In this document: piece by piece, positions 3,001-60,000 of the stretch
Position numbering within the stretch: position 1 is the stretch's first letter
How the letters are laid out: every line of letters starts with the position of its first letter
Assembly: GCA_030265395.1 (NCBI GenBank)
Contig: JARFYF010000053.1
Coordinates: forward strand, 18,125,675 to 18,189,674
Source: Rhina ancylostomus
Taxonomy: Eukaryota
Length of the DNA: 64,000 nucleotides
Direction of reading: 5' to 3'
Program-made: the position numbers

Positions 3001-6000
3001 TCCATGTTCCAAGCCTGCACCAGAAATGCTCTCCAACTCTTTCTCCGCTACAGAGTCCTAATGAAGGGTTTTGACACGAAACATCGACTGATTATTTCCC
3101 TCCATAGATGCTGCCTGACCTGCTGAGTTCCTCCAGCATTTTACATGTGTTGCTGCAGCTTATATTCCATTAGTTTAATTATGGGTAGTGTTAGAGTATT
3201 ATCCAATGAAATGATAAAATATGCAAGTAATCAGTGTGTAGAATGATAGAATGGGTGGCTAAAGAAAATGGACTTGCGGAGAAATTGGCTTATGGACAGT
3301 TCTCAGTAATGAAAACCTTACACAAGACTGCTCATATATAAAAATGAGCCTCACTCTGATAGTGAGACCTTCCAGGGTCTCATACTGAAACATTGTTGGA
3401 GGGCAGTGTGGTGTAGCAGGGCAGGTGGTAGGGGACCTTTGCCTTGTAAGCGTTGAGTATAAAGGCCATCCTCATGTAGGTTTCAGTTAATGAGTCAATG
3501 ATGGCTTGAAGCTTGGCCTCCAAATACTCACAGTTGCAAGCATCACCCAATGTAGCTCAGTACTGAGGCTCAGGTGACACAAAGAGTATTTTCTCCAGGT
3601 TGAACAATTTCCCATCAGTGCTGAAAATCAGATCTACTCTCATAGCATTTTGTTTGGAGGCATGATACAACATTGCAGGGACAAAAGGAAGAAGAATAGG
3701 TAAATGTTGTTTGAAAATTGTTCTGAAAATATAAATGATTCACAGCAGCAATGAGGATGTGCAAGCTTACCTTTCGGATTATTTAAGGTATAAACATAAT
3801 GGGTGACCTTTCTTTCACCATTTCTTTTCCATCTCCTTCCATTGGACAGAGTGTAAAATACTTGGTTATTTTGTGGTTTTTTCAAGATGAATTTCGTATT
3901 GAAAATGAAAGAAAAAACACCAGCAGTTGCTGGAAATCTGAAACAAAAATAGAAGTGATGAAAATATGCAGCAGGTCAGGCAGCATCTGTGGAAGTAGAA
4001 ATAATTAACGATTCAGGTCCAGGTGTCAGGTTAGGGTCCTGTCTGCCCTGCTAAGTTTTTCCAGCACTTTGTTTTTAGTCAAATACCAAACATGGGACCA
4101 GATCATTAACCAAAATCTCAGCCAAAAATCAACAGTATTTATGACATTCAGAGTCACAAATTCCAGCTGGGGAACCCAAATACATGGTCCCTGGACATCT
4201 CCACTACCTTACAACCCACGACAGAAACCTTGTGACCTGCCTGTAACCACCTCACCTCCACAATCTCCCTGATGCTTATTACCAACACTTTCCTGGTATT
4301 GACTCATGCTGATTGGAATTCAGTTGAATCATCTTCCACCCCTCTTCATTGCTTGCTAGCATCAGGAAGAACAGTTTTGAAACAGTAGGAAGTAAATTCA
4401 AGATCTGAGCTTAGAGCAACCCAATGTTTCAACCCACTGACCCATGTAACCCTCCACTAATTACACTTCTGGTGTCTATGAATTTCAATTGAATTTCTAC
4501 TTGGAATCACTCGCTTGCATTTTGCATTAATGTAGTTGAGTATGACAGGATATGCAACACATAATTCCAGTGATAAAGGTAATGAATTCTGCAATACTTG
4601 TTGTCATTTTTTCCTTGTAATCAACAGTGTAAATGCAAGGTCAAACATGATAAATCACAATCATGAATAACTATTGATTGTAAACCACTGAAAAAGTGAA
4701 CTCTTGACTTCATGGTACTTTGAAATAAACAAGTATCATAGAGCAGAGGTACTGTTTATTTTCAAGCAAAAAAAGGCTTCTATCGGTAAAGTGGTTGCTC
4801 CAATTCTCAAAAATTCTCAAAGCATATGGTAAGCAATTGATTGGTTTGACATGGGCAGCCTTTGTCATGTTAGTAGATAAGTCAGACATTTTAAAACACA
4901 GTGCAAAGCTACAAACAATAATAATATGAATGATGACCTCATTTTGCCCATATCAAAGTGGTCTACATAGGAACCTTGGACAACATGAGAATACTCAGGT
5001 CTTCTCCGAACACTTGAGTAATGTCACAGGATTTTGGAAAATGGAAATGGCTTCAGTTTATTATTTCATCAGACAAGTACCTTNNNNNNNNNNNNNNNNN
5101 NNNNNNNNNNNNNNNNNNNNNNNNNNNNNNNNNNNNNNNNNNNNNNNNNNNNNNNNNNNNNNNNNNNNNNNNNNNNNNNNNNNGACAAGTACCTTTGATA
5201 TCCCTCTGTCACAGTGGAATTGGAATTACACTTAAAATCTTCTTACTCAGAGGTGAATGCCTTACCATCTTGAGCCCTGCTGAAAACTTGGAGAGTTCAT
5301 CAAATCTCGGTGAAGTGTCAGTAATATTAAAGGCTATGATATATCCCTTTGGCAAAGGAAGAATTGCCCTCAAATTGCACTTTATAATTGGACATTCTAC
5401 ACTTTATATTTGAAGGAGGTATAATATTAAGACAGCCAACAGACAAAATTCCCTTCCTGACTTTTCTACAAAATATCAAAGAAAGGAAATTGCCACTAGG
5501 GTTAAGATGAAAGGTATATGCTCCTTTAGAAAGGGTTGATTTGGATGGAGAAAGACACTTACTAAAACCTTGCCCTGAACCCGCTCTAACAGCCAAAAAG
5601 AGCAAAGGCTAATTGAAAGCATGATAAAAAAAAGCAAGAGAACAATTTACCCTGATGTGAACATTGTGCTATTCACATGAAAGGATGCAGCCATATCTGC
5701 CAGTGGAAGGAATTTGATCAAAATTGTATGGAGAACAAGAGCTGACATAGCAGGAACTGGATATAATGAATATGGTGAACAAAGTGTTTCAGGCAATTAA
5801 ATAACATTTATATAGCTTTACCATGAGGGTAACTATTTAGTGCAGTCATATACAATCAAAAATTAGATGCAAAAGCATGGAGAACCAATCAGAAGGGAGA
5901 GATATTTTTTTAGCCATAGGAAGACTTAACTGACATTTCTGCCCTGTAAAATAAAAAAAAAACAAAATGTGATGGAAATGGAGAAAGAAACAATGTTAAC

Positions 6001-57000: not shown

Positions 57001-60000
57001 ATGCAGAACAATTCTATTGCAGGTAGAATATTTTGTTCATTTATAAAGCTTCTGAAGATGATGTATTCATTTGAGGATTCTTGATCTGTGCTTCTTATAT
57101 TTAAATAGCTCTGAATCCTGGTTAAGTAATGGGACAGATCCTCAACTGCCCCAGGGGAGTGATCAGCCTGTCCTGAGAAAAACAATCTGGCCCAAGGGCA
57201 AGTGCATGACTCTCTTGAGGCAACTGAAGATCTGTGTCTTATTTAACCAGGATTCAGTATGATTTAAATGTCAAAAGCACAGATTGGAAAGATGAAAAAC
57301 ATTCAAATGAACATAATGATCCCAGAAGGTATATGGACGGAATATTTTCTCTCATGAGAAAACATTCTCCCCACTTTCACCCAATCAAGAGCTCCAGGAT
57401 CTTATATGCTTCAGTCAAGTTGCATTTCATTCTACTAAACTCCAGTGGACACAAGCTGAGCCTGTCCAAGCTTCCCTCAGCAGACAACTAATGTAGTATG
57501 CAGGTATGACACATCAAGTAAATGTTATGAGCAAATTTCTACCCTGGCTCCCTGAATGGTAATCCAAACCTAAATAGAATTACATTAAAGGAGAATATTA
57601 GTAAGTTACAGTTTGTGTAGAGGATATTTTTCTCTCAAATGTTGAATATCATGGAAGAAATTTTAAAAATGCAAGATTCATTGTGGGTCTTGAAGACACA
57701 AGAGACTGCAAATACTGGAATCTGGAGCAAAAAACAAACTGTTGAAGGAACTCAGCAGGTCAAGCAGGATACTGAGCCAAAATGTCGATCATCCCTTTAC
57801 CTCCACAGATGCTACTCGATTGCTGAGTTCCTCCAACAGTTTGTTTTTTGCTAATTATTTGTCAAGATGCTCATGCTGAAACCGTCCAGTACTTTGTTAT
57901 CTGGATGGGTTCCCAGTGGCCTGTGCATTTGCTTGTTCCCATGAGAATATCTTTGTATTTGTAAAGAATTTTTCAGTTATTCTCAGTTGCATTTTTCTAT
58001 ATAGGAAAGGTTACAAATCCTATGCCAACCACCCATCCAAATCATTGAAAAAATAGCTTTAAAATGTTGGGAAGGGACAGAGGAAATTGGATCACAGTGG
58101 ACTGCTCCCATTTAAGAGCAAAGAGTAGCACAGATGGATTGTGCTAAGTGAGTCTCAATGTAATATAATTTCTGTCATGCTATAAATCAGGGGAGAAAAA
58201 AGACAGATTGTAAGGATATTAAAACTCCTGAATATTTGAAACATGTTGTTAAAATTTTCCCGAGGTGAGAAAATCAAGATACACAATCCTTTTTGTAGTA
58301 TTATTAGGTGATCACCAATGCTAAAAATCTAACTGGAGAGAGAGATAAAAAGAACATAATTGAAGCTTGCATTGACTGAGACCAGTCTTGAAATTCTGTT
58401 TGAATGAATCCTATCTATTAATAAAACGGAATTTGAGCTCGCTTCCAACAGTTTGAATTGCTCCCTTTATGAGAGGTAGTATTGACATTGGGGCTAATTT
58501 TAACTTAATCTGTCAGGAAACTGATATGATCACGTGAACACTCGTTTTACACCCCACCTGCATTTATTCTGCATTGGATGTGATGTAGAAGTGATATTTC
58601 ACTGGTCCTGTGAGTTTTTATCCGGTGAGTTAGGTTATTAATATTATTAACATCTGTCTCTTCTTCTAACTTGCTTTAATAGTTGTCCCTCGGACTCAAG
58701 GCTGTCCACTCCAGTTCTGTGGGTTCTGAGGTGACCTGTGAGCCTCATGTGGGACCCACAAACATTTCCACAGATGGGGTAGGGGGTGCCTGATGAAATG
58801 GGTGAGTGGTGCACTGCAGCTGCTGTTGATGCTGTGCTTCTGCATGCTCCCAATGCATGGAGCTTAGGTTCTCAACCTCACTCTAAACACTCTACTCCAG
58901 TTTGATTGATCATGGACCAGGGATTCTCAGGAGTCAGTGGGCATGTTACATTTCTTCAGGAAGGCTTTGAGGANNNNNNNNNNNNNNNNNNNNNNNNNNN
59001 NNNNNNNNNNNNNNNNNNNNNNNNNNNNNNNNNNNNNNNNNNNNNNNNNTCAGGCATGTGAGTGATGTGACTGGCCAAGCAGAGCCAAGTGTGTATAATT
59101 AGGGCCTCAGTGTCAGTGATGTCAGCCTAGGAAAGGATTCATTCACTTATTTGTTAAGTTGTGGAGGATTTTGCAGAGGCAGTGTTGGTGGAATCTCTCC
59201 AATGCCTCAAGGTGCCTGCTGTAAGTAGTCCAAGTCTCAGAAACATATAGGAGGGTAGGGATCACTACTGCCCAATAGACCATGAATTTTGTGCCAGGTT
59301 TGAGGTCTTGATCTTCAAACACCCTTCTCTTCATTCAGCCAAACCCCATGCTGCTACATTGAAAGTGATGGTGAATTTCACCAGTGATATTTGTCTTTGC
59401 CAAAATTTGGCTACCGAGATATGGAAATAGTCCATATTTTGTAAAGTCCTGCTGCAAACCTTTATTGTCAGAGGGCAGTGTTGGACAGTGAGAGAAAGGT
59501 GGTAGAGGAAGTTTATTTTCCACATGTTTAGTGTGAGTCCGATCCTCTTGTATGCTTCAGGGAATGAGTCAATGATGACTTAGAGCTCAGCCTCTGAATG
59601 GATGCACCATTTGTTTACTGCAGCTCAATGACTGAGGTTGAAGTGAACTTTGTTCTGTTGATGAGTTGAAGATTCTTACATTTGTCCTTTAGGTTAGTTC
59701 CACTCTGGTCAGAAACTTGTTGGAGGTGAAGTGTAGCATTGCGACAAGAATGATCAATAACGGCGGCAGGGCAATTGCACAATCTTTCTTTATGCTGGTC
59801 TGCACTAAGAATGGCTCTTTCCACAAGGACCACAGGCAGCAAATGTACCTTGCAATGGTTGGTTTACATATTTGGATCTACCAAGCAAATAGTTGCTCCT
59901 TTCAAGTGGATGTCATGTGATTGAATGGCAGTTCTACTTGGAGACATCAAGTCCCAGCACTGTCAACCCCAGATATCTGTTGTCAGCAGAATTGGAACCA

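What the first reader, a model, noticed from the sequence alone, without database searches (positions are those of the whole stretch)
3915..57852. PLE termini recur as inverted pairs, from a 1.4-kb element down to 120-160 bp hairpins
Seen: eight loci (3915, 5950, 13856, 30168, 32915-34310, 48670, 53925, 57695) have a minus-strand terminus on the left and a plus-strand terminus on the right, so both 3' tails point outward. They come from at least two subfamilies and have variable interiors. Established: PLE insertions often carry an inverted terminal repeat at the 5' end. Inference: here this is a dominant insertion product, yielding MITE-looking hairpins of retro origin. These would form dsRNA in any host transcript and could sequester the ribozyme strand.
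[Added by the scan's program, not by the reader: the finding's places include an assembly gap (unread letters, written N; its length is only estimated) at 5084 to 5183, 7805 to 7855, 11496 to 11559, 13421 to 13520, 17596 to 17656, 22825 to 22924. Whether the letters on both sides are continuous or in frame is not known: test that first.]
Basis: partly seen in the sequence, partly recalled or inferred. Interest (0 to 1): 0.65.

Follow-up and report, generated by a model that had tools for sequence, protein, structure and literature searches.

The report
Head-to-head Penelope-like retroelement stubs
Short back-to-back copies of the end of a ribozyme-carrying retroelement recur in this stretch far more often than chance allows, and they match an insertion pattern already described for Penelope-like elements, so the finding is real but ordinary.

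Summary
The pattern is real. Two profile scans find 22 copies of one roughly 100-280 nt retroelement 3' end. Seven loci hold a minus copy on the left and a plus copy on the right. No close pair has the opposite arrangement. Random placement gives P<5e-5 and strand shuffling P~0.005.

- Six are solid: 3909, 5950 (weak), 13860/14415, 48670, 53899, 57682.
- One (32898-34322) spans a 433-N gap, so its orientation rests on the scaffold.
- One (30155) has a minus terminus plus only a 17-nt plus-strand ribozyme piece.

The repeat carries a decayed minimal hammerhead, and some copies carry an optional ~36-nt "tail". Arms are unequally 5'-truncated, junctions are locus-specific, and both arms of a pair belong to the same subfamily (7 of 7). 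This matches the published head-to-head arrangement of Penelope-like elements.

I read each pair as one insertion event, probably primed from both cut target strands.

Limits:
- No reverse transcriptase or GIY-YIG gene lies in the window, and Rfam finds no hammerhead, so the PLE label is inferred.
- Only 2 of 4 short hairpins fold better than shuffles.
- 8 of 9 ribozyme cores are mutated, so "ribozyme sequestration" is unsupported.

Interest is low to moderate.

The parts
3909..4021 (-). Pair 1, left arm, subfamily B, with the ~36-nt tail; reaches the 3' half of the hammerhead
   Evidence: nhmmer (profile 159-272, E 4e-10; E 9e-19); tail test (P<=0.002 against two reference tails)
4039..4076 (+). 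Pair 1, right arm, 38 nt, no tail
   Evidence: E 0.012; exact 17-mer shared with 6045-6061; tail test negative against 3 of 4 references
5950..6026 (-). Pair 2, left arm, weak and decayed; lacks a ~20-nt internal block
   Evidence: 5979-6026, E 7e-4; alignment
6027..6062 (+). Pair 2, right arm; lacks nearly the same internal block as its partner; no tail detected
   Evidence: missed by both profiles; exact 17-mer 6045-6061; reciprocal best partner, 22 of 35
13860..13948 (-). Pair 3, left arm, no tail
   Evidence: E 1e-21; E 1e-5
14297..14415 (+). Pair 3, right arm, marginal tail; the pyrimidine-rich stretch 13949-14296 to its left is probably its own 5' extension
   Evidence: E 2e-7, profile 131-276; C+T fraction 0.65 against background 0.49, sd 0.067; tail P 0.03-0.10
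30155..30280 (-). Minus terminus with tail; not part of a terminus pair
   Evidence: E 2e-36, profile 159-284
30285..30301 (+). 17-nt plus-strand piece of the hammerhead abutting the inner end of the minus copy; it has no 3' terminus
   Evidence: the six other matches in the window (at most 3 mismatches) all lie in family copies, in the orientation of those copies (7 matches against 0.20 expected)
32781..32839 (-). Tail-bearing terminal fragment lying in tandem 59 nt outside the next arm
   Evidence: E 1e-11, profile 219-277
32898..33179 (-). Pair 5, left arm with tail; runs on towards the gap at 33400-33832
   Evidence: E 1e-71; inverted repeat I1, 125 nt and 88% complementary
34149..34322 (+). 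Pair 5, right arm, no tail; lies on the other side of the 433-N gap
   Evidence: E 4e-45, profile 30-243; partner identity 110 of 127, reciprocal best
48670..48765 (-). Pair 6, left arm, no tail; the purine-rich stretch 48753-48961 is probably its 5' extension
   Evidence: E 2e-23; C+T fraction 0.68 in element sense
48959..49066 (+). Pair 6, right arm with a subfamily-B tail
   Evidence: E 9e-16; tail against the 3909 tail scores 17, P 0.000; inverted repeat I2
53899..54009 (-). Pair 7, left arm, no tail; contains a whole, mutated hammerhead
   Evidence: E 3e-28, profile 142-255
53991..54103 (+). Pair 7, right arm with tail; it runs straight into a LINE-like 3' module
   Evidence: E 3e-23, profile 166-284
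57682..57770 (-). Pair 8, left arm with tail
   Evidence: E 1e-23, profile 196-284
57762..57854 (+). Pair 8, right arm, no tail
   Evidence: E 6e-24, profile 149-242; partner identity 35 of 41, reciprocal best; hairpin z -7.8
104..393 (+). Unpaired copy with tail; the only copy that keeps both hammerhead core boxes
   Evidence: E 2e-67
629..733 (+). Unpaired subfamily-B copy, no tail
   Evidence: E 1e-20
3018..3165 (+). Unpaired copy, no tail
   Evidence: E 5e-41
17672..17760 (+). Copy abutting the gap at 17596-17656; whether it has a partner cannot be known
   Evidence: E 1e-10
30850..30998 (-). Unpaired copy, no tail; continues past the 3-N gap into a GA-rich stretch
   Evidence: E 5e-19
45868..45966 (+). 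Unpaired 5'-truncated copy with tail, flanked by a perfect 13-nt target-site duplication
   Evidence: E 8e-22; 45869-45881 and 45970-45982; 0 of 300 random flank pairs score as high

Best explanation
Each pair is the product of one retrotransposition event of a Penelope-like element (PLE). It is the published 'head-to-head' form, in which an inverted 5'-truncated copy abuts the insertion, here shrunk to two short 3'-terminal stubs.

Proposed steps, all inferred:
1. The element's endonuclease cuts both target strands.
2. Each free 3' end primes reverse transcription at the RNA's internal start region. Every outer junction therefore carries the element's 3' end.
3. Both cDNAs stop early, at independent points. 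This gives unequal arms and locus-specific junctions.
4. The two cDNAs are joined head to head.
5. Use of the distal or the proximal start site adds or omits the ~36-nt tail.

What is shown: the arrangement, its excess over chance, same-subfamily arms, private variants shared by partners, the optional tail, and the decayed minimal hammerhead.

I put the identity (a single-event PLE-type head-to-head insertion) at about 0.8. I put the two-strand priming step at about 0.5.
For: Arrangement:
- Orientation excess: 7 minus/plus pairs against 1 plus/minus within 1 kb. Random placement gives P<5e-5 and strand shuffling about 0.005.
- Inner ends differ at every locus. Profile start coordinates are 159/199, 146/131, 2/30, 161/188, 142/166 and 196/149.

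Arms come from one template:
- Both arms share a subfamily in 7 of 7 pairs. Shuffled labels give P 0.0013, but the labels were set by eye and not blind.
- The partner is the reciprocal best match in 3 of 7 pairs (5950, 32898, 57682) and one-way best in a fourth (48670), out of 6-19 candidates.
- Partners share private variants, including nearly the same ~20-nt deletion in both arms at 5950-6062.

Interiors:
- The interiors at 13949-14296 and 48753-48961 are pyrimidine-rich in the sense of the longer arm (0.65 and 0.68, background 0.49, sd 0.067). The stretches upstream of solo copies look the same (0.63-0.78). This fits unequal truncation.

Family features:
- Majority letters of the alignment give the minimal type-I hammerhead described for metazoan PLEs: the CUGAUGA box, one extra base, a G-C closed helix II, the GAAA box, and an ACGU-type palindromic helix III eroded at two CpGs. 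The features are taken from Cervera & De la Pena 2014, PMC4209133, whose text I read.
- A ~36-nt tail is clearly present on 9 of 22 arms and marginal on a tenth. It is never on both arms of a pair: exactly one arm is tailed in 5 pairs, 1 pair is marginal, 1 pair has none.

Literature:
- An inverted 5'-truncated copy, and a 30-40 nt tail often at one end only, are reported by Craig 2021 and Arkhipova 2013.
- A PLE protein cuts and extends both strands in vitro. It starts at two adjacent internal sites, and the sequence between them is the tail (Frangieh 2024, PMC11167929, main text read).
- Min-hammerheads 100-700 bp apart on opposite strands were seen in Schistosoma.
Against: - No RT or GIY-YIG domain occurs in any of the 134 open frames of at least 70 aa.
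- Rfam gives no hammerhead at gathering score, at E<=10, or on an 81-nt piece alone.
- Protein searches with the open frame that runs through the terminus found nothing.
- No pair has a significant target-site duplication. All 7 pairs have p>=0.28 (pair 5 tested with and without the 32781 fragment), so a single event is not proved.
- The partner is not the nearest relative in 3 of 7 pairs: 3909, 13860 and 53899.
- The one-tail pattern is not significant on its own. By my own binomial arithmetic, P is about 0.06-0.22 depending on how the marginal pair is scored.
- Frangieh 2024 saw no difference in start site between the two strands.
- Pair 5 rests on scaffold orientation across 433 N.
- Everything comes from one 64-kb window.
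Confidence: 0.55

Rival explanations
1. The pairs are single events, but they were made by self-priming (snap-back) or template switching of one cDNA, not by priming from both target strands.
For: Arkhipova 2013 inferred self-priming from palindromes at inverted junctions. At 30155-30301 a 17-nt inverted hammerhead piece sits exactly at the helix II palindrome. The 53899 junction has a 4-nt near-palindrome, seen by eye.
Against: Arms are unequal and not symmetric about the junction. For example, at 57682-57854 the right arm holds about 40 nt that the left arm lacks. Simple fold-back predicts symmetric arms. Arkhipova 2013 notes that a sense template would then give tail-to-tail, not head-to-head.
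Confidence: 0.25
2. The pairs are two separate insertions: a later copy landed in or beside an older copy, because the endonuclease prefers its own sequence.
For: Frangieh 2024 and earlier work report cleavage in the element's own pLTR/tail. In 3 of 7 pairs the partner is not the closest relative. No pair has a target-site duplication.
Against: Homing would give both relative orientations, and would split old copies, not truncate them. Here the count is 7 minus/plus against 1 plus/minus, and that one pair is 744 nt apart. Subfamilies match in 7 of 7 pairs. Three pairs are reciprocal best matches that share private variants.
Confidence: 0.1
3. The hairpins are copies of a propagating non-autonomous hairpin element (MITE-like, or a retrozyme-type unit) and are not independent products.
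For: The short forms look like hairpins. Three subfamily-B pairs have broadly similar arm extents.
Against: Inner junctions, interiors and the tailed side differ at every locus. There are no target-site duplications. No sequence is shared beyond the arms. No tandem arrays of ribozyme units exist: none of the 6 TRF rows lies in an array of such units.
Confidence: 0.04
4. The pairs are assembly artefacts (palindromic misjoins).
For: The assembly has 15 gaps, and 3 of them have the same letters on both sides. Craig 2021 notes that PLE structures upset short-read assemblies.
Against: Six pairs contain no gap. Arms differ by 13-51% in the shared columns and are unequal in length. Chimeric palindromes would be near-perfect.
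Confidence: 0.03

Closest known systems
Head-to-head inverted pLTR insertions of endonuclease-bearing Penelope-like elements (Penelope/Poseidon/Neptune type)
   Same: An inverted 5'-truncated copy abuts the insertion. An optional 30-40 nt tail sits at one end. A minimal hammerhead lies near the terminus. Target-site duplications are variable or absent. There is heavy 5' truncation and occasional partial tandems (32781 next to 32898).
   Different: Here the whole insertion is reduced to two stubs of 36-280 nt with no coding body. No RT or endonuclease gene is in the window. All copies are old, with arms 13-51% apart.
Dual min-hammerheads on opposite strands 100-700 bp apart in Schistosoma mansoni (Cervera & De la Pena 2014)
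   Same: Close, opposite-strand copies of the PLE ribozyme region, attributed to truncated PLEs.
   Different: That paper gives no anatomy of the pairs in the text I read. In 5 of 7 pairs here, only one arm reaches the ribozyme.
L1 twin-priming inversions
   Same: Both cut target strands are thought to prime cDNA, giving an inverted 5' segment.
   Different: In L1 the inverted piece is the next-upstream segment, not a second copy of the 3' end (recalled, not read here). Here both arms duplicate the same terminal region. Only 30155-30301 resembles the L1 pattern.
MITEs
   Same: Short, hairpin-forming, non-coding.
   Different: Here there are no target-site duplications and no conserved terminal inverted repeats. 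The outer ends are retroelement 3' ends, arms are unequal, and junctions are locus-specific.
Metazoan non-LTR retrozymes
   Same: Type-I hammerhead repeats related to PLE pLTRs (Li et al. 2026 preprint; I saw the abstract and some passages).
   Different: Retrozymes are head-to-tail tandem arrays. None is present here.

Membership tests
Penelope-like elements (EN+ clades) | Single ORF with a telomerase-like RT and a GIY-YIG endonuclease | tested here: inconclusive
   0 of 134 open frames of at least 70 aa match RVT or GIY-YIG. Short 5'-truncated stubs are not expected to carry the ORF, and the rest of the genome could not be searched.
Penelope-like elements (EN+ clades) | Minimal type-I hammerhead in the terminal repeat: CUGAUGA box, extra base before helix II, G10.1-C11.1 pair, GAAA box, short palindromic helix III | tested here: met
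   Majority letters of 9-14 aligned copies give every one of these features. Two CpGs have decayed to TG/CA. This holds at motif level only: 1 of 9 individual copies keeps both boxes, and cleavage was not tested.
Penelope-like elements (EN+ clades) | [quoted passage not shown] | tested here: met
   A ~36-nt extension is clear on 9 of 22 arms and marginal on a tenth. Exactly one arm is tailed in 5 pairs, marginal in 1, none in 1, and never both.
Penelope-like elements (EN+ clades) | Inverted 5'-truncated copy adjacent, head to head | tested here: met
   7 minus/plus pairs; P<5e-5 by random placement and about 0.005 by strand shuffling.
Penelope-like elements (EN+ clades) | Short target-site duplications, variable and sometimes absent | tested here: inconclusive
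   1 of 12 tested units (solo 45868-45966) has a 13-nt duplication. The other 11 have p>=0.27.
Rfam hammerhead families | Covariance-model score at or above the gathering threshold | tested here: not met
   0 hammerhead hits at gathering score, at E<=10 on the whole window, or on 3030-3110 alone.
MITE (DNA-transposon derivative) | Target-site duplication, conserved terminal inverted repeats, copies sharing one structure | tested here: not met
   No duplications flank any pair. The outer ends differ by tail state. Junctions are locus-specific.
Metazoan non-LTR retrozymes | Head-to-tail tandem arrays of hammerhead units | tested here: not met
   TRF reports 6 rows, none of them an array of ribozyme units.
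L1-type twin-priming inversion | The inverted segment is the adjoining upstream part, not a duplicate of the 3' end | tested here: not met
   In all 7 pairs both arms cover the same terminal columns. Only 30155-30301 fits the L1 pattern.

The most novel reading that the evidence does not exclude
The head-to-head stubs may record an obligatorily coupled two-strand priming, in which the two strands use different start sites. That would explain why no pair has two tails.

The tailed end may also be physically linked to a LINE-like 3' module. All 4 copies of that module lie within 122 nt outside a terminus 3' end, and one is fused to a tail in one open frame. This would point to template switching between LINE and PLE RNAs, or to a shared landing site.
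Probability: 0.12. Interest if true: 0.55.

Novelty: new member of a known kind. Interest (0 to 1): 0.27.

Why it matters
It adds a vertebrate-type example in which PLE insertion leaves mostly tiny head-to-head stubs. Annotators can mistake these for MITEs or for assembly errors. The stubs preserve the two outer junctions and the tail state of each event. A genome-wide census of them could therefore test, from sequence alone, the two-strand, two-start-site model proposed from in vitro work. Within this window the pattern changes nothing about what is known of PLEs.

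Tried and rejected
- **Rfam:** three scans found no hammerhead.
- **Pfam:** a scan of all 134 gap-free open frames of at least 70 aa found no RT or endonuclease. 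The one listed match (GlpM, 16.8 bits against a cut-off of 25) is below threshold.
- **Protein word searches:** I searched with the frame that stays open through terminus and tail and with 53928-54194. Neither returned a hit, so the idea that the terminus holds the start of the element's ORF stays untested.
- **Target-site duplications:** the search was negative for every pair.
- **First arm-identity ranking:** one search was confounded by flanks and tails, so I replaced it.
- **'Exactly one tail per pair':** profile end coordinates suggested 6 of 6. A shuffle-controlled test reduced this to 5 clear, 1 marginal and 1 with none, so I do not claim it as a rule.
- **Sequence similarity of the interiors to upstream regions of other copies:** only 1 of the tested pairs of segments aligned, and that was a low-complexity match. 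Only base composition supports the reading.
- **Literature on cartilaginous fishes:** the search gave nothing on this family.
- **Not done:** Small-RNA and editing data were also out of reach. Supplementary figures of Cervera 2014 and Frangieh 2024 could not be seen. They may hold vertebrate ribozyme consensus families and tail maps that bear on the match.

Full report
**What the window is**

The window has about 37% G+C, 15 assembly gaps, and no open frame with a Pfam domain. I do not take it for human. The repeat studied here carries a minimal hammerhead of the kind reported as absent from mammalian genomes (Cervera & De la Pena 2014, PMC4209133, text read).

**The repeat family**

Self-comparison shows a family of about 80-280 nt. 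A profile built from ten copies finds 18 places at E<=0.012. A second profile, built for a divergent subfamily, adds 17672-17760 and the left arm at 5979-6026.

In element sense, each copy reads as follows:
- a pyrimidine-rich stretch;
- a hammerhead-like core;
- about 70 nt;
- an end point;
- in some copies, a further ~36 nt (the 'tail').

One solo copy, 45868-45966, is flanked by a perfect 13-nt target-site duplication directly after the tail. These ends are therefore true insertion 3' ends.

**The observation**

Seven loci carry a minus copy on the left and a plus copy on the right. Their coordinates are listed under parts.

The locus at 30168 differs. It has a minus terminus with a tail, followed only by a 17-nt plus-strand piece of the ribozyme region.

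The pair at 5950 is weak. The right arm is missed by both profiles, but it shares an exact 17-mer with the right arm at 4061-4077.

The 1.4-kb pair encloses a 433-N gap that the scan's note did not list. For that pair, the size, the interior and the inverted orientation all rest on the scaffold join.

Three other gaps have the same letters on both sides, which suggests unmerged contig ends:
- 5084-5183: 12 nt repeated.
- 52930-53029: 9 nt repeated.
- 49751-49850: about 103 nt at 99% identity.

**More than chance**

These counts use the 21 arms known.

| Gap between neighbours | minus/plus | plus/plus | minus/minus | plus/minus |
|---|---|---|---|---|
| up to 20 nt | 4 | 0 | 0 | 0 |
| up to 400 nt | 6 | 1 | 1 | 0 |
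| up to 1000 nt | 7 | 1 | 2 | 1 |

Random placement reached the observed minus/plus count in 0, 0 and 1 of 20,000 runs. Shuffling strands alone gave P 0.004-0.006. Solo copies hit one strand only, so the pairs are not an effect of a self-complementary profile.

**One event or two**

- *Subfamily.* By a diagnostic stretch, the arms agree in 7 of 7 pairs. Label shuffling gives P 0.0013. I assigned the labels by eye, knowing the pairs.
- *Nearest relative.* Over the columns both arms share, the partner is the reciprocal best match in 3 pairs: 110 of 127, 35 of 41 and 22 of 35 identical. It is one-way best in a fourth. It is mid-ranked in three pairs: 3909, 13860 and 53899.
- *Private variants.* Partners share private variants, including nearly the same ~20-nt deletion in both arms at 5950-6062.
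- *Age.* Divergence from the majority letters is similar within most pairs, but noisy.
- *Target-site duplications.* No pair has a significant one.
- *Junctions.* Inner ends differ at every locus, and so does the side that carries the tail. The pairs are not copies of one hairpin master.
- *Interiors.* The 'variable interiors' at 13949-14296 and 48753-48961 are pyrimidine-rich in the sense of the longer arm, like the upstream parts of solo copies. They are probably just the longer arm's extension. This rests on composition only.

**The ribozyme**

Rfam finds no hammerhead at any threshold tried. The alignment's majority letters nevertheless give these features:
- the CUGAUGA box;
- one extra base;
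- a G-C closed helix II;
- the GAAA box;
- an ACGU-type helix III split by CpG decay, with columns at 7:7 and 8:6.

These are the features listed for metazoan PLE min-hammerheads.

Of 9 aligned copies that span both boxes, 1 (104-393) keeps them. Both arms reach the ribozyme in 2 of 7 pairs.

**Folding**

| Stretch | z-score | Shuffles folding as well (of 200) |
|---|---|---|
| 57718-57854 | -7.8 | 0 |
| 53903-54050 | -4.5 | 0 |
| 3945-4076 | -1.4 | 21 |
| 5950-6062 | -0.4 | 63 |
| 30155-30301 | -0.35 | 73 |
| solo control 3018-3165 | +0.4 | 132 |
| solo control 45868-45966 | +0.1 | 105 |

The longer pairs have arms of 125 nt at 88% complementarity and 66 nt at 79%.

**The tail**

A shuffle-controlled comparison of the 45 nt beyond the short end finds a clear tail on 9 of 22 arms, and a marginal one at 14415.

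Among the 7 pairs:
- 5 have exactly one tailed arm.
- 1 has one marginal tail.
- 1 has none.
- None has two.

Among unpaired copies, 4 have a tail and 4 do not. This agrees with the published remark that the tail is often at one end only. On these numbers it is not significant by itself.

**Comparison with what is known**

- Craig et al. 2021 (passages) and Arkhipova et al. 2013 (passages) describe the inverted 5'-truncated copy, the one-sided 30-40 nt tail, and cases with no target duplication.
- Frangieh et al. 2024 (main text) show that a PLE protein cuts and extends both strands. Reverse transcription starts at two adjacent internal sites, and the sequence between them is the tail.
- Cervera & De la Pena 2014 noted min-hammerheads 100-700 bp apart on opposite strands.
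- A 2013 review (passages) reports that Penelope inverted repeats give siRNAs in flies.
- Searches for PLE plus 'head-to-head', and for shark terms, found no description of stub-sized pairs. That absence covers only the library searched.

I therefore file this as a further instance of a known architecture.

**Mechanism**

I favour one event with priming from both cut strands and early, independent stops. Self-priming is the main alternative. It is favoured by the inverted 17-nt piece at the helix II palindrome at 30285-30301. It is disfavoured by the asymmetric arms.

**An unexplained side observation**

A second repeat has these copies:
- 54087-54438
- 32359-32659
- 46041-46126
- 824-889
- weakly, 3829-3861

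It carries the end of an open frame, an AATAAA signal and its own 3' end.

All 4 firm copies lie from -16 to 122 nt outside a terminus 3' end. Random placement gives P about 2e-5. At 54103 the tail runs into this repeat in one 89-codon open frame.

A full HMMER search found 30 proteins (E<=1e-3) that match its C-terminal 40 residues. Of these, 8 carry PF09004 upstream, and none carries an RT or GIY-YIG domain. From memory only, that domain travels with fish LINE ORF2s.

I could not test whether the link reflects template switching, shared target choice, or chance clustering of repeats.

Noticed in passing
54087-54438 (+), 32359-32659 (+), 46041-46126 (-), 824-889 (+); weak 3829-3861 (+): A LINE-like 3' module (end of an open frame, AATAAA, a short repeat at its own 3' end). 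All 4 firm copies lie from -16 to 122 nt outside a PLE-type 3' end (P about 2e-5). At 54103 it is fused to the tail in one open frame. Relatives carry Pfam PF09004 in 8 of 30 hits, and none carries an RT or GIY-YIG domain.
   Followed up: partly
57084-57129 and 57239-57284: A 46-nt inverted repeat, 83% complementary and 109 nt apart, unrelated to the terminus family. It may be a true MITE.
   Followed up: no
gaps 5084-5183, 52930-53029, 49751-49850: The same letters appear on both sides of each gap: 12 nt, 9 nt, and about 103 nt at 99% identity (49648-49750 against 49851-49953). This suggests overlapping contig ends that were left unmerged.
   Followed up: partly
270-401 (+) and 32893-33020 (-): In two copies, one reading frame stays open from just after the ribozyme through the terminus and tail, giving similar peptides. 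It could be the start of the element's ORF. The protein search found nothing.
   Followed up: partly
32650-32790 (+): A 47-codon open frame lies between the LINE-like module and the tail fragment at 32781. From memory only, it resembles a LINE reverse-transcriptase segment.
   Followed up: no
17657-17700 (+): Directly after the gap, a 3' half of a hammerhead core is followed 6 nt later by a CUGAUGA box. This could be a partial tandem of ribozyme units cut by the gap.
   Followed up: no
22925-23134, 28196-28482, 51914-52219, 33833-33912, 9964-10070, 62980-63136: Another dispersed repeat family. One copy starts exactly at the right edge of the 433-N gap inside the largest pair.
   Followed up: no
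1225-1451, 15860-16000, 18296-19144, 52234-52655, 61882-62582: A further repeat family of up to about 700 nt, with copies on both strands and none in close inverted pairs.
   Followed up: no
31053-31122: A GA-rich microsatellite lies in the upstream part of the minus copy at 30850. Upstream parts of the family are 63-78% pyrimidine in element sense.
   Followed up: partly
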